Below are positions 43,910-52,373 of a stretch of 59,463 nt of DNA, in pieces. The position numbers and the translations under genes were made by a program. The DNA lies in the sequence record MK672798.1, one strand, 5' to 3'. The DNA is from Escherichia phage Skure. The notes beneath the pieces were generated by a model. The model saw only the letters and a list, made by a program, of their open reading frames with translations, was not told the origin of the DNA and did not search any database. Within the stretch, counting starts at the first letter, position 1. Each line of letters opens with the position of its first letter.

Positions 43910-44431
43910 TTAACCATTGTTGGAAAATTCACCGTGCAAAATTGCACGCATTTCCTTCAGCCATTGTGTCGCTTTATTTTTACCTTCATCATTAAATGGA
44001 AAATACCTATAATAGTTTTTACCATTCAGTCGAATCTGCGCTAACCAACTATTGCTGGTTTTAGATTTGTTATGTGTAAGACCTTTAACCCCGCTTGAAT
44101 TGTTACTGTATTTAAATCTATTATGTGCGTTCTGACTAGAATCGCAAGCCCTCAAATTGTATTGAGCATTATTCAGTTTATTGCAGTCGTCATGATCAAT
44201 TTCTTCAGGTTCTTCATCATAGAGCATTTTCCAGATTATGCGGTGGACAAAATATGAAATGCCATCAATCTTTGTTCTAAGATGACCAGTTGTATGAACC
44301 CATCCAACGCAAGATCCCTTTGGAGCTCTGTTGCTTCTATGGATCTTCCATGTTAATGCACCCGTCGACGGATCATAGTCAAATAGCTCCAGAAGCTGCT
44401 CTTGTGTAAGGTGTATAGGCTTCGCTTTCAT
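43910..44431 (-). CDS. HNH homing endonuclease with AP2-type DNA-binding domain
   Basis: 173 aa; HRIIW...EIDHDDCNKLNNAQYNLRACDSSQNAHN (HNH) followed by SGVKGLTHNKSKTSNSWLAQIRLNGKNYYRYF (AP2-like). Confidence 0.75.
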   Translation of the reverse strand: MKAKPIHLTQEQLLELFDYDPSTGALTWKIHRSNRAPKGSCVGWVHTTGHLRTKIDGISYFVHRIIWKMLYDEEPEEIDHDDCNKLNNAQYNLRACDSSQNAHNRFKYSNNSSGVKGLTHNKSKTSNSWLAQIRLNGKNYYRYFPFNDEGKNKATQWLKEMRAILHGEFSNNG

Positions 44432-45315: not shown

Positions 45316-45633
45316 TCAATTTTGCGCGGTTCCCTTTGCCGCTTTTGGTGCTAAAGTACCATCATTTAACATCAACTCAAAACCTGTTACTTGATCGGTT
45401 GGAACAATAGGGTAATTCATAATAGCCATGTGAATACAATGTCCACCGTCACATTCCTCGATGTATTCATTACCCCAATAGTATAAATGCCCATCTCTTC
45501 GAATATCCATTGCCGTTGGGAAATCTACAAGAATTCTTTTAATTTCTTTTCGTCCTTCTTTATGCAGATTAGTTTCAATACGGATAAGCTCCGCATAAAT
45601 TGCTTCACAGATAGTGTTTACAATTCCCATCAT
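45316..45633 (-). CDS. hypothetical protein
   Basis: 105 aa, Cys/His-containing. Confidence 0.4.
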   Translation of the reverse strand: MMGIVNTICEAIYAELIRIETNLHKEGRKEIKRILVDFPTAMDIRRDGHLYYWGNEYIEECDGGHCIHMAIMNYPIVPTDQVTGFELMLNDGTLAPKAAKGTAQN

Positions 45634-45827
45634 TTACCCCTTAAGTTTTGAATCATTCTGTCGCAGGCAGCTTTTACAGAAGAGTTTTGCCAGTCTTCCT
45701 CGATTTGTGAAGGTTCTTCAGGTGAATAAGCAGCACTAATTAAGCACTGATTATAACCTTCAATATAAGCCTGCTTTGCGGTATCTATTATTGCTTGTAA
45801 AGCAATATTGAATAATTGTTGAGACAT
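45630..45827 (-). CDS. hypothetical protein
   Basis: Start at internal ATG (MSQQLFNIAL) with GAGGTG RBS; about 65 aa. Confidence 0.35.
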   Translation of the reverse strand: MSQQLFNIALQAIIDTAKQAYIEGYNQCLISAAYSPEEPSQIEEDWQNSSVKAACDRMIQNLRGK

Positions 45828-46068
45828 TTTACACCTCACAGAATATACATAAACCAGAAATAACCAGCTACGAAAATAGCACCCGCAAATAATTTTAAAA
45901 GCTCGAACATTGTCCCCTCCGTTAACTTTATGCTGTAAGTATAGCAAGACTTACGATGTATGCAACAACTTTAGACTTGAAATACATCTATGAAATAGCA
46001 CGATTTGCCTTTACCTCTGATCCGTCTAGCTGTACTATTAACCCATAAACAGAGCGGAGGATTACAAA

Positions 46069-46293
46069 ATGGTCATGCTGAATAAAGTATATAGCACAAT
46101 GGGCGCGGATTATAAAGTTGTACGTCACCCGCGTACTGGTAAATTTGAAGCATACATCCGTCCAATGGGTGAAGGTTGGATGTATTACGGTACTTATGAT
46201 GACGCTGAGAAAGCTTATGAAGAAGCGGAAAGTGCGGCGGAAGCATCCGAAATTATGGCAAGGTACGACGTCGACGATTACTATTTCAACTAA
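46069..46293 (+). CDS. small acidic protein on opposite strand (moron-like)
   Basis: 74 aa; GGAGG RBS 7 nt upstream; followed by intrinsic terminator; antisense ORF 45988-46296 looks non-protein-like. Confidence 0.4.
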   Translation: MVMLNKVYSTMGADYKVVRHPRTGKFEAYIRPMGEGWMYYGTYDDAEKAYEEAESAAEASEIMARYDVDDYYFN

Positions 46294-46297
46294 CAAT

Positions 46298-46326
46298 AAA
46301 GGGCCGAAAGGCCCTTTATTTATTTG
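46298..46326. terminator. bidirectional terminator between primase gene (-) and small + strand gene
   Basis: AAAGGGCC-gaaa-GGCCCTTT followed by ATTTATTT on + strand. Confidence 0.6.
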
Positions 46327-48659
46327 CTTAAGTCCTTGAAAACACTCTCAATTGACTCGTCTATATACCATCCCAATCCCCTGAAATTACGCTTCAACGC
46401 ATCTTCACGCGTGACTGGAACGAGCGCACCCATGTCTACAAGTTGCTTGATGGTAAGGTCTGTTGCAGTACCTGCTCCCATCCTGTGATTCTTGAATGCT
46501 GCTAGACCGTAGGTTCTGCGTGTGATAGTTGCCTTTGGAATAATACCGTCAACGCGCAGCTCCTTACGATCACATGCAATCTTACCGCCAAGATAATCTT
46601 TGCAGACCTGACAGATAGCCTTCACACGTGTTTCGTCATCACCGCCAATAGTACCTTTTTCCCATGCGTTGATCATGATGTCTTGTCCATGCGTAACAAA
46701 ATCTACCGCCCATTGCATGTGGTTTGGTTGCACCACAGGATTGATCCAGTTTTCCCCCACCGCTAACAGAGACGCAAGACGCAGAGCTTTAAGGTGAGCA
46801 CGGTTCCACGGCTGACGGATTGCTTCGTCTTTGGTTGCGTTAATGTGTTCATCACATAACAGGTTAAACTCCCGTTCAATCCTTTCAGCTTCAGGACTTA
46901 ACTGGACTGTGACAGTTTGAAACTTCGCCATTGTTACTAAGGTGTGGTTAACAAGATGGCACACCATGTCCTTTAACTGCTGGGGCATTATAATCTCAGG
47001 GTTTTCGTTTGCAGGAACTCGATCTCCTTCATATTGCACAATGTGGAAACGGGACAAGAAACCGTCTTCCATCATTTCACGAGTTAATGCTTCAAAGAAA
47101 GTGTCCGGTGTTGTTTCTCCCAGCACGCTGAACGCCACCCCTTCCATTGTTTTGGTATTATTAGCCTTATCAGAATATCCAATACCGCCAACAACATCCA
47201 TCGCACCAGATTTTTGATACACATCTGTGATAGTTTGCTTCAGGGTATAGTTTGCAGTGCCAGGCTGAGCTGTCGCCATACCTTTAATGGTTTTACCAAA
47301 CTCACCGTTAATATTCACAAACGAAGTATGATCCGCAAAACTTTTACGCAAGGCAGGACCGGAAGCATAGTTAGTCATATCTACAAATTCATGCACTTGC
47401 GGTAATTGCTCGCCTACTTGCTTACAGATATAACTAGGCCCAGCGTGAAGCATTTCTTTACCCACACCAGATCGGGCAATAAGGACAAAGTAACCGTTCA
47501 GCCCTGTGTTGGTGATAGTATTCCATACCTTACCGCATACGCCGGACAAGAATGCTAACGATGCAGTGATTGCAATTTCTTTCACCGGACGCTGCGATGC
47601 TTTGTAGATATACTTCGCAAGCTCACCAGCAAGACCCGGCGGCCATTCAATAGCTGTTGCATCAATGGACGTGCTTTCTGCTACTACTATTTCACCGGAC
47701 GGGCTGACTGTGGTTACAGGCATTTCCGTTACCTGCTGCATTGTGCTGTGTGCGGCTTGCATACGGGCAGCGTAATCCCGCGCCAGCGCCGCTACGTTTT
47801 CCTGGGCAATGCGCTCACGTTCCATGCGACCGCGACACATACGCAAGCAACGGTCAATATGAACATTGTTCTTATTAGCCTTCTCACGTTTGCCCAGTGC
47901 ACTATAACGGAACAGACGACGACATTGCTCATTACTTTCCGTGTAGAATGCATACATAGAAATAAGGGCAAGGTCTGCTTCAGACTGGGAAGGGAATCCC
48001 ATTTCAACCCATTCACCGTTAAATAACCGTGCATACTTATCGCCGTTGTCTGCTTCAAGTGCACGCTGATGAATAGTTGCATCATCTTCTACCGGATCTT
48101 TTTCTACCAGTTCAATTTCATATGTCTTGCGCTGAAGATCAATTTCATTCACAAGCATAGTAAGGTAATGATCACGTTCTGCAACTGGTTTGTTGTAAAC
48201 GGGATTGCCCGTGCAGATAATAAAACGCTCCTGACTATAAACCTCGACACCATCACGTCGACGACCTTTACCGATGTTACCTCTTAACCACAGGTGAACA
48301 CCCAAGCCTGAGCGACTCACTTCGGTGTAAGTATCGAACGCAGTCATGATCTGTTCGAAGCGGCGCAACTGCTCCGGCGTCGTGTGCTTCTTGGGGTCCG
48401 GTTCATTGGTTGCATTCTTCACATCCAGGTCGATGCAGGTGAACGGGTCTTGTGCAGTAAGCACAAAGCCAATATAAGGTTTATTGAAATGAGCAGCACA
48501 ACCTTTGGCAGCTTCAAACGTCATAAGCATATCCGGATCGGTAACGTCCGCCGCCATCAAACGTCCAATATCGTTATCCCATACGAGCGGCTTTTTATCC
48601 GCATCGGCGACCGCCCATTGTGGGAAAGCTTTAATTTCAGCGGGAAACAGTTCCATCAT
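46320..48659 (-). CDS. DNA primase / replication initiation protein (primase-polymerase-like N-terminal region)
   Basis: 779 aa; SRSGLGVHLW resembles the primase-polymerase active-site region; ARSGVGKE nucleotide-binding-like segment; next to candidate origin. Confidence 0.45.
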   Translation of the reverse strand: MMELFPAEIKAFPQWAVADADKKPLVWDNDIGRLMAADVTDPDMLMTFEAAKGCAAHFNKPYIGFVLTAQDPFTCIDLDVKNATNEPDPKKHTTPEQLRRFEQIMTAFDTYTEVSRSGLGVHLWLRGNIGKGRRRDGVEVYSQERFIICTGNPVYNKPVAERDHYLTMLVNEIDLQRKTYEIELVEKDPVEDDATIHQRALEADNGDKYARLFNGEWVEMGFPSQSEADLALISMYAFYTESNEQCRRLFRYSALGKREKANKNNVHIDRCLRMCRGRMERERIAQENVAALARDYAARMQAAHSTMQQVTEMPVTTVSPSGEIVVAESTSIDATAIEWPPGLAGELAKYIYKASQRPVKEIAITASLAFLSGVCGKVWNTITNTGLNGYFVLIARSGVGKEMLHAGPSYICKQVGEQLPQVHEFVDMTNYASGPALRKSFADHTSFVNINGEFGKTIKGMATAQPGTANYTLKQTITDVYQKSGAMDVVGGIGYSDKANNTKTMEGVAFSVLGETTPDTFFEALTREMMEDGFLSRFHIVQYEGDRVPANENPEIIMPQQLKDMVCHLVNHTLVTMAKFQTVTVQLSPEAERIEREFNLLCDEHINATKDEAIRQPWNRAHLKALRLASLLAVGENWINPVVQPNHMQWAVDFVTHGQDIMINAWEKGTIGGDDETRVKAICQVCKDYLGGKIACDRKELRVDGIIPKATITRRTYGLAAFKNHRMGAGTATDLTIKQLVDMGALVPVTREDALKRNFRGLGWYIDESIESVFKDLSK

Positions 48660-48925
48660 TTACCTTCGTTAACAATCACTTTTAACAGAGATGTAATTAC
48701 ATCCTTGACTTTATCGATAGTGACGAAAGCTGTATCCATTGTGGCATATGTGCCAATATACTGATACTCATCCATGACTCTAATAAATGCGCGATATTGT
48801 GTAATCCCACCTTTTAATTCCACCTCTTCAAAATAAGCGCATACATCCTCAAATTGTCCTTCTCCCAGCCATGGAGCAGGGAATCGAATCATCTCTTTAC
48901 CTATATATGGTATTTTTCTAGCCAT
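48656..48925 (-). CDS. hypothetical protein
   Basis: Start at internal ATG (MARKIPYI) with GGAGG RBS. Confidence 0.4.
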   Translation of the reverse strand: MARKIPYIGKEMIRFPAPWLGEGQFEDVCAYFEEVELKGGITQYRAFIRVMDEYQYIGTYATMDTAFVTIDKVKDVITSLLKVIVNEGK

Positions 48926-49217
48926 AGATCTGTTTCCTCCGCCATTCTTCGTATGCTGAATTATTTGCGTCATATACTTCGCAAGCGTCTTTCATGCTGT
49001 CATACAGTCCAAGGAAAGTTCGCCTTGTTTCTCCACCTGCATCTACCCATGTTAATCGGGCGAGCCATTTACCAGTTTTATAATCGAAAGTAACTCCCTC
49101 ACGCCCGCTCACATTTTCCCGCGGCACTCGGGGCTTTCGGCGTGCGAGTCCACGACCTTTGAAATTACTACCCGGGACAGTCCTGCACTTACGACCCACG
49201 ACCAACCTCCGGCACAA
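48918..49217 (-). CDS. AP2-like DNA-binding domain ORF, possibly a degenerate homing-endonuclease fragment
   Basis: GVTFDYKTGKWLARLTWVDAGGETRRTFLGLYDSMKDACEVY resembles the AP2 domain of HNH endonucleases; Arg-rich N-terminus, no HNH motif. Confidence 0.3.
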   Translation of the reverse strand: MCRRLVVGRKCRTVPGSNFKGRGLARRKPRVPRENVSGREGVTFDYKTGKWLARLTWVDAGGETRRTFLGLYDSMKDACEVYDANNSAYEEWRRKQIYG

Positions 49218-49404
49218 CCCGGCCAGCGTGCAACATTAAGACAGGTTCTGCAACTGCACGAACATAGACATACACGTTAGCAATTTTAACTTCGCCCGGC
49301 AGCTTACCGCGAAGCGAACATAATTTGCGACGACTAAGACCGAAGCGGTTTTCAATTTCTGATGTGGTTATGTATTTAAGATCAAATTCTTTTTGACAGT
49401 CCAT
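49189..49404 (-). CDS. small protein with HTH-like segment
   Basis: 71 aa; AGGAGG RBS; ITTSEIENRFGLSRRKL resembles a helix-turn-helix; C-terminal part overlaps the next ORF out of frame. Confidence 0.35.
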   Translation of the reverse strand: MDCQKEFDLKYITTSEIENRFGLSRRKLCSLRGKLPGEVKIANVYVYVRAVAEPVLMLHAGRVVPEVGRGS

Positions 49405-49560
49405 ACCTACCTCCTAACAGCACTATACACAATCCATAGTAAGCCAGCCACAATTATTCCACCTGAAGTTATGATGTGAGCGGATTGTTAACATATAACC
49501 ACATGTGATGGAAAGTTTTGGGTAGGAATAGTTGGTGCTCCGCAGTTTGCACAATGTGAC

Positions 49561-49600
49561 GGAAAGTTTTGTGAGTTTTGCAAAGTTTTGCGAAGTTTTG
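49561..49600. repeat. four tandem (A)AGTTTTG repeats at about 10-bp spacing
   Basis: ggaaagttttg tgagttttg caaagttttg cgaagttttg; a fifth copy at 49513-49520. Confidence 0.6.
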
Positions 49601-50075
49601 TGGTGCCACTGTTGCTAAAAACTTTAATAAAAACAATAAGTTGGTGCAGTAAGTTTTTGCGTTTTGGGGTAAAACGCATTTTTTACCCTAATACCCTAAT
49701 CCCGACTGTTAGTAAAAAACGTATATAAATCAATAAGATAGATACTAAATGAATAGTGAATGGAATGGGTAGAAATCCAAATGATGGAAGTGGAATAAAT
49801 TATTCCTACTTGATGGAATAATGGAATCGGTACTCTGGAGCGCAAAAACCTAAAACTTTCAGTCAACAGACTAAAAACGGATAGAAACTAAAAGTTAATA
49901 AGTAATACCATAAATATATATAAAATAAGGATTTATTAGTAATGTATATAGTACCTATTGGTATTTATTTGAATGTTTTTGGGTCTGCAATAAAAAGTCG
50001 CAAAACTCACAAAAAGTGAAAGAATACAATTCGTGACAGGATTGTTAATGGAATATGGTGTATGGATATACAGTA

Positions 50076-50113
50076 TTATTCCAGATTCCGGAATAATTGG
50101 AATAATGGAATAA
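50076..50113. repeat. GGAATAA repeat cluster with embedded 10-bp palindrome ATTCCGGAAT
   Basis: TTATTCC-agattcc-GGAATAA-tt-GGAATAA-t-GGAATAA; related palindrome GGAATAA-a-TTATTCC at 49792-49806. Confidence 0.6.
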
Positions 50114-50233
50114 ATTATTGAACTATTGTGGTCGGAAGGTATATCAAGCTATAATGCGCTTAATCGCGGGATATTGGAGGAGGACTTTATTGCGCGGTTA
50201 ACCGGACCAGTAGGAGGGCTGGCCCGGAGTAGT

Positions 50234-51768: not shown

Positions 51769-52088
51769 GATGTAACCCTTAATGTGGTTAAGCAGTATTG
51801 CTTTGTTGAAGTAATAATAGCCTTGCATCGTGATATTGAATAGGCCAAAAGTGCTATTTTGATATTGTTTTGCATCTAGTGAAAATTATGCTTGCCTTGC
51901 ATGTTTAGCACAAATGGCCTAACTAACATCACATTATCTGGAGTATTCGCACGGGCGCACACATACATATAAAGCTGCCAAAATATTTTTATAAAAAGAT
52001 GCAAAAAGGTGTAGACATATGATCGGTCTAGCACTACTATATACACATACCGCAAGGGTACTACAAATTAACTTAAAGGGTACACATT
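51769..52088. promoter_or_regulatory. divergent promoter/operator region between - strand and + strand blocks
   Basis: 320-nt AT-rich spacer; repeated motifs CCTTGCAT (51821, 51895) and TGATATTG (51831, 51860); candidate + strand promoter TAGACA-17-TACTAT at 52012-52040. Confidence 0.35.
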
Positions 52089-52373
52089 ATGTCCATCGTT
52101 ACTATGTCGTTCTTCGACCATTGCAATAACGAAAAACAAATTATCGTTAACTTGCAAAAAGGATCTGTTGTCGCACGCAATGCTAACCGCCAATGCATCG
52201 CGCTAACCGATTTTGCTTTCCGTCTTAACGTGGACAACACCACCGCCAAAAATATCGTTCACGATACAGCGTTGCAAGCTGCTCACGCTGCGAAGGATGA
52301 AGGTATCCGCGCCGCACGCAAAATCATGCATAAGGTGCTCGGCATCACGTTCTTCATTGGCATTAAGGGGTAA
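52089..52373 (+). CDS. hypothetical protein
   Basis: 94 aa, first gene of right-hand + strand block. Confidence 0.45.
   Translation: MSIVTMSFFDHCNNEKQIIVNLQKGSVVARNANRQCIALTDFAFRLNVDNTTAKNIVHDTALQAAHAAKDEGIRAARKIMHKVLGITFFIGIKG

What the first reader, a model, noticed from the sequence alone, without database searches (positions are those of the whole stretch)
46000..46326. Small + strand gene with its own promoter-like sequence and terminator inside the - strand replication block
A 74 aa acidic protein (GGAGG RBS) is encoded against the direction of all neighbouring genes and is followed by a strong hairpin and T-run. Independently transcribed small genes of this kind are often host-takeover or anti-defence factors.
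Basis: inference. Interest (0 to 1): 0.4.

Follow-up and report, generated by a model that had tools for sequence, protein, structure and literature searches.

The report
Lone small AP2-fold phage gene
A real, conserved 74-residue gene of a Seurat-like E. coli phage sits backwards inside the replication genes as its own small transcription unit and encodes an unusually acidic, stripped-down AP2-type DNA-binding fold. It has so far only been labelled "hypothetical", and its function is still untested.

Summary
Window 46069-46293 (+) encodes a 74-aa acidic protein (pI 4.55) with a GGAGG ribosome-binding site. It is the only + strand gene in the ~28-kb - strand block, and a -17 kcal/mol hairpin with a T-run follows it.

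The window is a Seuratvirus (96.7% to phage SLUR25). The gene is the homologue of Seurat gp59, "hypothetical" in every record. It is a real gene: dN/dS is about 0.2, the antisense ORF is broken in diverged relatives, and position and orientation persist down to 40% identity.

The hairpin is a bidirectional terminator shared with the convergent primase gene and shows compensatory changes. Upstream lie two back-to-back promoters. The gene's own promoter copies the main early promoter at 52 kb.

The new result is that the protein is a diverged stand-alone AP2 domain (hhalign 94.5%, E 7.6e-8; AF2 pLDDT 82). However, most canonical DNA-contact residues are replaced and every family member is acidic.

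My best guess (0.4) is an early DNA-binding regulator acting at phage promoters. Modest interest; a new member of a known kind.

The parts
46069..46293 (+). CDS for a 74-aa acidic stand-alone AP2-fold protein, the homologue of Escherichia phage Seurat gp59 (phrog_22269).
   Evidence: ORF. 93-100% identical in 33 phage records, all annotated 'hypothetical'. phrog_22269 E 1.6e-52. dN/dS about 0.2. AP2 homology. AF2 model pLDDT 82 with strands 13-19, 26-32, 38-43 and helix 46-66.
46056..46060 (+). Shine-Dalgarno sequence GGAGG, 8 nt upstream of the ATG.
   Evidence: Read from the sequence. Invariant in all six diverged relatives aligned. Annotated as an RBS in phage Seurat.
46010..46038 (+). Putative sigma-70 promoter of the gene: -35 TTTACC (46010-46015), 17-nt spacer containing TGATCCGTCTAGC, -10 TACTAT (46033-46038).
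   Evidence: TACTAT is invariant across relatives while the flanks vary. 46018-46038 shares TGATCNGTCTAGCNNTACTAT with 52020-52040, against 0.01 matches expected by chance. The -10/start region TACTATWWACNCATA has exact matches only at these two sites. Function as a promoter is inferred, not shown.
46295..46320 (.). Bidirectional intrinsic terminator: stem AATAAAGGGCC / GGCCCTTTATT with a GAAA loop. It fills the whole 26-nt gap between the stop codon of this gene and the stop codon of the convergent primase gene.
   Evidence: Terminator scan. dG -17.3 (+) and -18.3 (-) kcal/mol, z -4.9 and -4.6. Compensatory stem changes (GGGCC/GGCCC to GGGTC/GACCC or GGGGCT/AGCCCC) and loop flips (GAAA, TTTC, GTTT) in relatives. 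Annotated as a two-strand terminator in Seurat and SA80RD.
45938..45965 (-). Putative divergent promoter for the downstream - strand genes: -35 TTGCAT (45965-45960), 16-nt spacer, extended -10 TGCTATACT (45946-45938).
   Evidence: TATAGCA is invariant on the + strand in all relatives, and the -10 reads TGCTATAAT in STP-SP5. Needed logically because the terminator at 46295-46320 ends the primase transcript. Inferred, not shown.
45970..45990 (.). Most conserved non-coding element between the two -10 boxes, TTTAGACNTGAAA..ATCTA. It lies at about -39 to -59 of the - strand promoter.
   Evidence: Conserved in relatives whose gp59 is only 40-55% identical. Unique in the genome. Either an UP-like part of the - strand promoter or a regulator site; unresolved.
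45836..45910 (-). Context: a 24-codon hydrophobic ORF (MFELLKLFAGAIFVAGYFWFMYIL) with a GGAGG RBS. It is the first gene of the divergent - strand unit and is not among the annotated CDSs of the SLUR25, Seurat or SA80RD records.
   Evidence: Translation. The coding block is conserved at the DNA level in all relatives. In L010, L011 and L012, similarity to the window begins at window ~45821-45827, so peptide ORF + promoters + gp59 + terminator are retained while the gene further downstream on the - strand differs.
52012..52040 (+). Look-alike promoter TAGACA-N17-TACTAT in front of the first gene (ATG 52089) of the + strand block at 52-59 kb, presumed early.
   Evidence: Promoter scan, 9/12. Shares the spacer and -10 motif with the gp59 promoter. 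I count 28 of 38 positions identical between 46010-46047 and 52012-52049, by hand.

Best explanation
The locus is a genuine self-contained transcription unit (promoter, GGAGG RBS, 74-codon gene, bidirectional terminator). It is conserved at this exact position, convergent with the primase/helicase gene, throughout Seurat-like phages.

Its product is a minimal, diverged AP2-type domain: a three-stranded beta-sheet packed on one long acidic helix, ending in a disordered acidic/aromatic tail. Its promoter is a near copy of the promoter in front of the + strand block at 52 kb, so it is most likely made early by host RNA polymerase.

My preferred mechanism is that the protein is a small sequence-specific DNA-binding regulator. 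It would use the conserved face of the sheet (K/R16, Y/W29, R31, W37, Y/F/L39) to bind phage promoter DNA. Candidate targets are its own back-to-back promoter region, which controls the downstream nucleotide-metabolism and replication operon, and/or the look-alike early promoter. This would time the early-to-middle switch.

- Shown: the gene is real, the unit architecture is conserved, and the protein is homologous to AP2.
- Inferred: promoter activity, early timing, DNA binding and the target sites.
For: Real gene and conserved unit:
- dN/dS is about 0.2 and the antisense ORF is broken in relatives.
- Synteny and orientation are kept down to 40% identity.
- The RBS, both -10 boxes and the terminator are conserved, with compensatory stem changes.

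Early-type promoter:
- The 19 specified bases of the motif TGATCNGTCTAGCNNTACTAT are shared with the 52-kb promoter, against 0.01 matches expected by chance.
- The 52-kb site is called promoter-like by the scan.

AP2 homology:
- Pfam AP2 E 0.006 over residues 17-59.
- A family profile searched against 1.84 billion proteins returns multi-AP2 proteins (E 8e-17 to 1e-4). Nine of nine such hits scanned carry Pfam AP2 above its gathering score.
- The top PDB sequence hits are ERF096, WRI1 and AtERF1 (E 0.07-0.55).
- hhalign against an AP2 alignment gives 94.5% probability, E 7.6e-8, 38% identity over 39 columns.
- AF2 pLDDT is 82 with a beta-beta-beta-alpha topology.

Regulator-like setting:
- The gene is divergently transcribed from a promoter only ~90 bp from its own. 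A strongly conserved unique element lies between them.
- The sheet half of the protein is net +3 in the window protein and in three of the six other family members tabulated.
- Phage AP2 domains are documented transcriptional repressors (CasPRs, bioRxiv 10.64898/2026.02.23.707548).
Against: - All family members are acidic overall (pI 4.05-5.05, net -2 to -12). In the two most diverged members even the sheet half is net negative. A second AP2-like ORF in the same genome (48918-49217) has pI 10.2.
- In the hhalign register, of the residues I recall as DNA-contacting in AtERF1 (Allen et al. 1998, from memory), only R162 (= R31) is kept. W172 is replaced by another aromatic (Y39), and invariant W37 falls at the R170 position. 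R150, R152, W154 and E160 are replaced.
- The most invariant segment is the N-terminal MxMLNxVYS, which lies outside the AP2 core.
- The Pfam score is below the gathering threshold (17.3 vs 33.3 bits).
- The conserved intergenic element does not recur elsewhere in the genome. It does not co-vary with the protein and could simply be an UP-like part of the - strand promoter.
- The shared spacer motif decays in diverged relatives and in SLUR25's early promoter. It may therefore reflect common descent rather than an operator.
Confidence: 0.4

Rival explanations
1. The AP2 fold has been repurposed as a small acidic protein-binding factor. It would act as a decoy or DNA/SSB-tail mimic made early to neutralise a host protein such as a nuclease, a restriction or other defence component, or RNA polymerase.
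For: - pI is 4.05-5.05 in all members, net charge down to -12 in 66 aa, and the helix plus tail is net -5 to -10.
- Basic residues are poorly conserved. The invariant residues are mostly hydrophobic or aromatic (M1, M3, L4, N5, Y8, S9, D14, R31, W37, A49, E61).
- Most canonical AP2 DNA-contact positions are replaced.
- The C-terminal tail is conserved in character, acidic plus Tyr/Phe, and is disordered (pLDDT <50).
- The promoter is of the early type and the gene is a stand-alone unit.
- Small genes in the same position and orientation in Nonagvirus (9g gp24 and its JenK1 counterpart) and Providencia phage PSTCR7 (gp22) are unrelated in sequence. The two I translated (JenK1, PSTCR7) are also small and acidic, pI 5.4 and 4.2.
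Against: - To my knowledge AP2 domains are known only as nucleic-acid binders.
- The gene is core and nearly invariant (93-100%) within the genus. That is unlike most fast-evolving, patchily distributed anti-defence genes.
Confidence: 0.3
2. It is a replication accessory protein. It would bind DNA, or the adjacent primase/helicase or polymerase, through its acidic-aromatic tail in the way SSB or T7 gp2.5 tails recruit partners. It would help load or regulate the primase/helicase encoded next to it.
For: - The gene is always convergent with and abutting the primase/helicase gene, even in relatives at 40% identity.
- Other AP2-like small ORFs flank the primase on its other side: 48656-48973 (hhalign E 1.8e-4 to the gp59 family) and 48918-49217 (Pfam AP2 E 2.5e-4).
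- A repeat-rich non-coding stretch, a candidate origin, lies 3 kb away at 49.4-50.2 kb.
- The C-terminal tail is acidic and aromatic.
Against: - Adjacency of convergent genes does not imply co-expression.
- There is no GC-skew inflection at 46 kb.
- No iterons or repeats occur next to the gene.
- Queuovirinae relatives NP1 and K4PH164 have the primase without any such gene.
- The resemblance of the tail to SSB-type tails rests on my memory, not on a test.
Confidence: 0.1
3. It is a decaying remnant of a free-standing HNH-AP2 homing endonuclease gene that lost its nuclease domain and now has no function of its own.
For: - There is weak similarity to the AP2 region of phage HNH endonucleases (phrog_99, E 0.005).
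- The genome and its relatives carry several HNH(-AP2) endonuclease genes at variable positions.
- Reverse orientation with its own promoter and terminator is typical of free-standing homing endonuclease genes.
Against: - Purifying selection is evident (dN/dS 0.07-0.4).
- It has a fixed position in all 34 phage records that have it, and in metagenomic relatives down to 40% identity.
- The RBS, promoter and terminator are conserved.
- There is no trace of HNH sequence in the flanks.
- An ancestral origin from such a gene is still possible.
Confidence: 0.05

Closest known systems
Escherichia phage Seurat gp59 (CPT_Seurat59, AIW03922.1) and its CAjan, SLUR25 and BASEL-phage homologues; PHROG phrog_22269
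   Same: It is the same gene: 93-100% amino-acid identity, same position and orientation. The RBS and two-strand terminator are already annotated in Seurat and SA80RD.
   Different: Nothing differs structurally. All records call it 'hypothetical protein' and the PHROG has unknown function. The AP2 assignment, the promoter pair and the look-alike early promoter are not in those annotations.
AP2/ERF DNA-binding domain (Pfam PF00847; AtERF1 GCC-box binding domain 1GCC/2GCC, TEM1 7ET4, WRI1 7WQ5)
   Same: It shares the beta-beta-beta-alpha fold and detectable sequence homology across the whole domain, including the GT(Y/F)d(t)aEeA motif.
   Different: It is below Pfam's gathering score. It is acidic (pI 4.55) where AtERF1's domain is basic (pI ~10.9, sequence from memory). 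Most Arg/Trp DNA-contact positions are replaced. It has an extra invariant N-terminal MVMLNKVYS segment, and it is stand-alone at only 74 aa.
Phage AP2-containing transcriptional repressors (CasPR anti-CRISPRs: CapR + AP2; AP2 genes in Listeria/Clostridioides acr loci)
   Same: Both are phage-encoded AP2 domains used, or proposed to be used, to bind DNA and silence transcription.
   Different: It has no CapR zinc-finger domain; the window protein has no cysteine at all. It is not in an acr locus, it comes from a virulent Enterobacteria siphophage rather than Bacillota prophages, and it is much smaller.
HNH-AP2 homing endonucleases of phages (PHROG phrog_99)
   Same: It has weak similarity to their AP2 DNA-binding module. 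It shares the reverse orientation and its own transcription signals.
   Different: It has no HNH domain. Its locus is fixed and core rather than sporadic, and it is under purifying selection.
Arm-type DNA-binding domains of tyrosine integrases (HPI integrase 3JTZ, Tn916 Int 1BB8)
   Different: There is no sequence similarity, no attached recombinase, and a different genomic context.
Positional analogues: Enterobacteria phage 9g gp24 and its JenK1 counterpart (Nonagvirus), and Providencia phage PSTCR7 gp22
   Same: Each is a small gene convergent with the primase/helicase gene. The two I translated (JenK1 76 aa, PSTCR7 59 aa) are acidic. In JenK1 a shared hairpin terminator and a compact divergent promoter-like region are visible in the sequence.
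   Different: There is no detectable sequence similarity to the gp59 family (hhalign probability <1%) and no Pfam match.

Membership tests
AP2/ERF domain superfamily (PF00847) | Match to the Pfam AP2 model at or above the gathering score (33.3 bits). | tested here: not met
   17.3 bits, E 0.006, residues 17-59 on model positions 6-50 of 54. The diverged members P0005, P0007 and P0017 give no AP2 hit at E<=1.
AP2/ERF domain superfamily (PF00847) | Profile-level homology to bona fide AP2 domains. | tested here: met
   A family profile retrieves multi-AP2 proteins from 1.84 billion sequences (E 8e-17 to 1e-4). Nine of nine scanned carry Pfam AP2 above its cut-off. hhalign of family against AP2 alignment: 94.5%, E 7.6e-8. 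The best PDB sequence hits are all AP2/ERF proteins, but at E 0.07-0.55. One top hit, P0006, is a compositional coiled-coil artefact.
AP2/ERF domain superfamily (PF00847) | Three-stranded antiparallel beta-sheet packed against a C-terminal alpha-helix. | tested here: met
AP2/ERF domain superfamily (PF00847) | Conserved Arg/Trp residues on the sheet that contact DNA (AtERF1 R150, R152, W154, E160, R162, R170, W172; recalled from Allen et al. 1998). | tested here: not met
   In the hhalign register only R162 (= R31, invariant) is kept. W172 is replaced by Y/F/L39, and invariant W37 sits at the R170 position. R150 becomes V18, R152 becomes H20, W154 becomes T23 and E160 becomes Y29. See the family alignment.
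AP2/ERF domain superfamily (PF00847) | Sequence-specific DNA binding. | not testable with these tools
   Needs EMSA, footprinting or ChIP. The acidic pI argues for caution.
CasPR (CapR + AP2 anti-CRISPR repressors) | N-terminal CapR zinc-finger domain with conserved cysteines, required for activity. | tested here: not met
   The 74-aa protein has no cysteine and no room for a second domain. The definition is taken from bioRxiv 10.64898/2026.02.23.707548.
HNH-AP2 homing endonuclease | HNH nuclease domain. | tested here: not met
   Pfam finds only the weak AP2 match, whereas the neighbouring ORF 43910-44431 does hit HNH_3.
HNH-AP2 homing endonuclease | Sporadic presence or absence among closely related genomes. 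| tested here: not met
   Present at the same locus in 34 phage records and in all metagenomic relatives recovered. About 35 phage records carry a primase at >=60% identity.
Acidic DNA-mimic / anti-CRISPR proteins (e.g. AcrIIA4 family) | Significant sequence or structural similarity to a known member. | tested here: not met
Bidirectional intrinsic (Rho-independent) terminator | A stable GC-rich hairpin flanked by an A-tract and a U-tract, so that each strand reads a hairpin followed by a U-run. | tested here: met
   dG -17.3 and -18.3 kcal/mol on the two strands, z -4.9 and -4.6. AAUAAA is 5' and UUUAUUUAUUU is 3' of the GGGCC-GAAA-GGCCC core.
Bidirectional intrinsic (Rho-independent) terminator | Structure, rather than sequence, is conserved in relatives. 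| tested here: met
   The stems differ by paired changes and the loops vary freely in six relatives. Relatives fold at -15 to -20 kcal/mol.

The most novel reading that the evidence does not exclude
An AP2 DNA-binding fold has been converted into a highly acidic, early-expressed decoy. The conserved aromatic sheet face and the acidic/aromatic disordered tail would bind and disable a host nuclease, defence or replication protein. That would be the first AP2-derived anti-host factor. It would fill a conserved slot next to the primase gene that unrelated small acidic proteins occupy in other Queuovirinae and in a Providencia phage.
Probability: 0.25. Interest if true: 0.6.

Novelty: new member of a known kind. 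Interest (0 to 1): 0.3.

Why it matters
Seurat-like phages (Queuovirinae) are the model phages for 7-deazaguanine DNA modification, and several are in the widely used BASEL collection. Their transcription programme is uncharted.

This locus marks a clear operon boundary inside the replication block: a terminator followed by back-to-back promoters. It also gives the only gene that interrupts the block a fold assignment and two testable roles.

If the protein is the early-to-middle regulator, it gives a handle on gene timing in this group. If it is an acidic decoy, it adds a new fold to the anti-host repertoire. Either way the gain is incremental, because small AP2 proteins in phages and lone reverse-strand genes are both known kinds of thing.

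Tried and rejected
- **Antisense ORF 45988-46296 (-, 102 aa) as the real gene.** Rejected. It is open only in the closest relatives and has 2-4 stops in the four diverged ones.
- **The 30-aa ORF 45956-46048 (+) annotated in SA80RD.** Rejected. Its ATG is absent in STP-SP5 and a 10-nt deletion interrupts it in L022.
- **Replication origin at the locus.** No GC-skew inflection at 46 kb and no iterons. A better candidate lies at 49.4-50.2 kb.
- **Regulon search.** The conserved intergenic elements ACTTGAAATACATCTA, ATAGCACGATTTGCCT and TTTAGACNTGAAA do not recur above chance elsewhere in the genome. The spacer core GATCNGTCTAGC recurs only at the 52-kb promoter.
- **Structured RNA.** No Rfam match at E<=1 in 45500-46500.
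- **Homology between gp59 and the positional analogues in JenK1/9g and PSTCR7.** None found.
- **Operator reading of the shared promoter spacer.** Weakened, because the motif decays in SLUR25's early promoter and in diverged relatives.
- **Foldseek against the PDB with the better model.** No significant hit, and AP2 was not in the top 50. The afdb50 library was unavailable.
- **BFVD search.** It returned only uncharacterised small phage proteins at weak E-values.
- **Literature searches.** They gave no experimental data on this gene.
- **The 3944-aa top hit P0006 of the profile search.** It is a coiled-coil compositional artefact.

Full report
**What the window is.** The 2.5 kb around the finding is 96.7% identical to Escherichia phage vB_Eco_SLUR25 and similar to 35 other phage records, mostly labelled Seuratvirus (Queuovirinae). 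The genome has + strand structural genes to about 23 kb, a - strand block from 23.3 to 51.4 kb, and a + strand block of small genes from 52 kb to the end. The - strand block holds queuosine-type modification genes, helicase, exonuclease, ligase, RNase H, dUTPase and primase/helicase.

**Observation check.**
- An ATG ORF lies at 46069-46293 (+), 74 aa, net charge -6, pI 4.55.
- GGAGG sits at 46056-46060, 8 nt upstream of the ATG.
- All neighbouring genes are on the - strand. In SLUR25's annotation the homologue is the only + strand CDS within that part of the - strand block.
- A perfect 11-bp stem with a GAAA loop lies at 46295-46320, followed by TTTATTTATTT. Its dG is -17.3 kcal/mol, z -4.9, with 0 of 200 shuffles as stable.
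- The promoter-like site TTTACC-N17-TACTAT (46010-46038) matches only 8/12 and was not listed by the consensus scan. Its support is comparative (see below).

**It is a real gene.**
- The protein is 93-100% identical in 33 phage records, and a 48%-identical version occupies the same slot in Salmonella phage STP-SP5.
- Public protein and metagenome collections add only a handful of further clusters down to 40% identity.
- In every case with context, the gene is a lone + strand gene convergent with the primase/helicase gene, with about 230 bp of upstream spacer.
- Nei-Gojobori dN/dS is 0.19-0.23 for unsaturated pairs and 0.07 for L024 vs L004.
- The 102-aa antisense ORF (45988-46296) is open only in the closest relatives and has 2-4 stops in the diverged ones.

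**The transcription unit.** The hairpin fills the entire 26-nt gap between the stop codons of this gene and of the primase gene (46320-48659, -).
- It folds equally well on the - strand (-18.3 kcal/mol, z -4.6).
- Across relatives the stem changes by paired substitutions (GGGCC/GGCCC, GGGTC/GACCC, GGGGCT/AGCCCC). The loop flips between GAAA, TTTC, GTTT and others.
- It is annotated as a two-strand terminator in Seurat and SA80RD.
- So the - strand block is not one operon. The primase transcript should stop here, and downstream - strand genes need a new promoter.

**The promoter pair.** Phylogenetic footprinting of the 158-bp spacer (45911-46068, between the 24-codon ORF's start and the gp59 ATG) shows two invariant -10 boxes about 90 bp apart.
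- On the - strand there is TGCTATACT (45946-45938), an extended -10 that reads TGCTATAAT in STP-SP5. It has TTGCAT 16 nt upstream.
- On the + strand there is TACTAT (46033-46038).
- The - strand unit begins with a conserved 24-codon hydrophobic ORF (45836-45910) that is not annotated in SLUR25, Seurat or SA80RD.
- In several relatives, similarity to the window starts just past that peptide ORF. Peptide ORF, promoters, gp59 and terminator therefore travel as a block.

**An early-type promoter.** The + strand promoter shares TGATCNGTCTAGCNNTACTAT with exactly one other place in the genome, 52020-52040 (0.01 matches expected by chance).
- That site is the TAGACA-N17-TACTAT promoter-like site 40 nt upstream of the first gene of the + strand 52-59 kb block.
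- The -10/start region TACTATWWACNCATA also has exact matches only at these two sites.
- I infer that gp59 is transcribed with that block by host sigma-70 polymerase. That the block is "early" is itself an inference from its content of small genes.
- The spacer motif is less conserved in SLUR25's 52-kb promoter and in diverged relatives. It may reflect common descent rather than an operator.

**The protein.**
- Pfam gives a sub-threshold AP2 match (E 0.006, 17.3 vs 33.3 bits). PHROGs places it in an unknown-function family, with a weak hit to the AP2 part of HNH endonucleases.
- A profile of four family members searched against 1.84 billion representatives found 38 proteins at E<=0.001. Apart from family members and one coiled-coil artefact (P0006), the listed hits are mostly longer proteins matched in several stretches. 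All nine of those I scanned carry 2-8 Pfam AP2 domains above threshold.
- The best PDB sequence matches are ERF096, WRI1 and AtERF1, individually non-significant at E 0.07-0.55.
- hhalign of the eight-member family alignment against five AP2 domains gives 94.5% probability, E 7.6e-8, with 38% identity over 39 columns.
- AlphaFold2 with seven sequences gives pLDDT 82 with all five models in agreement: strands 13-19, 26-32, 38-43, helix 46-66, and a disordered tail 66-74.
- Foldseek against the PDB finds nothing significant.
- I conclude, at about 0.8, that this is a diverged stand-alone AP2 domain. None of the records or precomputed tables I saw carries that assignment.

**What is odd about it.**
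- Every member is acidic, with pI 4.05-5.05 and net charge -2 to -12.
- The charge is split. In the window protein and three of the six other members tabulated, the sheet half is net +3 while the helix and tail are -5 to -9. In the two most diverged members even the sheet half is slightly negative.
- A second AP2-like ORF in the same genome (48918-49217) has pI 10.2.
- In the hhalign register only one of the seven AtERF1 DNA-contact residues I recall (R162 = R31) is retained, and W172 is replaced by another aromatic.
- The invariant residues are M1, M3, L4, N5, Y8, S9, D14, R31, W37, A49 and E61. The best-conserved segment is an N-terminal extension outside the AP2 core. It is conserved at the protein level despite synonymous Leu and Ser codon switches.
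- The tail always ends in acidic plus aromatic residues.

**Mechanism.** I commit, at 0.4, to an early-made small DNA-binding regulator acting at phage promoters.
- It has a nucleic-acid-binding fold.
- It sits divergently beside the promoter that restarts the replication and nucleotide-metabolism operon. The most conserved and genome-unique non-coding element (TTTAGACNTGAAA, 45970-45982) lies between the two -10 boxes.
- Its own promoter is a copy of the other early promoter. Phage AP2 domains are documented repressors.
The charge pattern, the loss of contact residues and the conserved tail favour it.
- The rival is also supported by unrelated small acidic proteins in the same slot in Nonagvirus and in Providencia phage PSTCR7.
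- A replication-accessory role (0.1) and a functionless homing-endonuclease remnant (0.05) are less likely. The second is contradicted by selection and fixed synteny.

**Comparison and novelty.**
- The gene is already annotated as Seurat gp59 and its homologues, with its RBS and terminator, but only as "hypothetical".
- It qualifies as a diverged member of the AP2 superfamily by profile homology and fold. It does not qualify by Pfam's threshold or by conservation of contact residues.
- It is not a CasPR, because it has no CapR domain and no cysteines. It is not a homing endonuclease, because it has no HNH domain and its locus is fixed.
- I rate it a new member of a known kind, with modest interest (0.3).
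- The most novel reading not excluded, an AP2-derived acidic anti-host decoy filling a conserved slot beside the primase, has a probability of about 0.25.

Noticed in passing
window 45836-45910 (-): A 24-codon hydrophobic ORF (MFELLKLFAGAIFVAGYFWFMYIL) with a GGAGG RBS. It is conserved at the DNA level in all relatives, and hand translation of two relatives also suggests protein-level conservation. It is the first gene of the - strand unit that starts beside gp59 and is not among the annotated CDSs of SLUR25, Seurat or SA80RD. In L021 its start codon position reads ATA.
   Followed up: partly
window 49,400-50,230: An ~830-bp non-coding, AT-rich stretch inside the - strand block. It holds clusters of short repeats: AAGTTTTG about five times at 49,510-49,600, and GGAATAA/TGGAAT/ATTATTCC at 49,760-49,830 and 50,070-50,125. 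The cumulative GC-skew minimum falls at about 49-50 kb. It is a candidate replication origin or regulatory region.
   Followed up: no
window 48656-48973 (-) and 48918-49217 (-): Two small ORFs just upstream of the primase gene are also AP2-like. The second hits Pfam AP2 at E 2.5e-4 and is very basic (pI 10.2). The first matches the gp59 family weakly (hhalign E 1.8e-4). In SA80RD this position holds an HNH endonuclease gene, so they may be pieces or relatives of a homing endonuclease.
   Followed up: partly
window 52012-52049 (+): The promoter-like site TAGACA-N17-TACTAT before the first + strand gene at 52089 is 28/38 identical to the gp59 promoter (my hand count). These are the only two sites of this type in the genome.
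   Followed up: yes
L007 5550-5900 (JenK1), L008 5413-5643 (9g gp24), L005 5403-5582 (PSTCR7 gp22): Nonagvirus and a Providencia phage have a small gene in the same position and orientation (convergent with the primase). The two I translated are acidic and have no detectable similarity to gp59. In JenK1 a shared terminator hairpin and divergent promoter-like sequences are visible. This looks like a conserved architectural slot filled by different proteins. Pseudomonas phage NP1 and Klebsiella phage K4PH164 lack it.
   Followed up: partly
window 46320-48659 (-) compared with phage records: The primase/helicase occurs as two alleles among Seuratviruses, >=90% identical in 18 records and 60-80% identical in 17 (sampled rows about 77%). 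The adjacent gp59 stays 93-100% identical in both groups, so a mosaic boundary lies at or near the shared terminator.
   Followed up: no
protein P0004 (45 aa, from a 1218-bp ENA contig): It is a chimera of the N-terminus of the 65-aa - strand protein (window 45630-45827) and the C-terminus of gp59. The two are joined at a shared A(K/E)(Q/K)AY motif. It is either a recombinant or inversion variant, or an assembly artefact.
   Followed up: no
window 43910-44431 (-): An HNH_3 endonuclease ORF (173 aa) lies between the PDDEXK nuclease and dUTPase genes. HNH genes sit at different positions in SA80RD, so mobile endonucleases vary among these phages.
   Followed up: no
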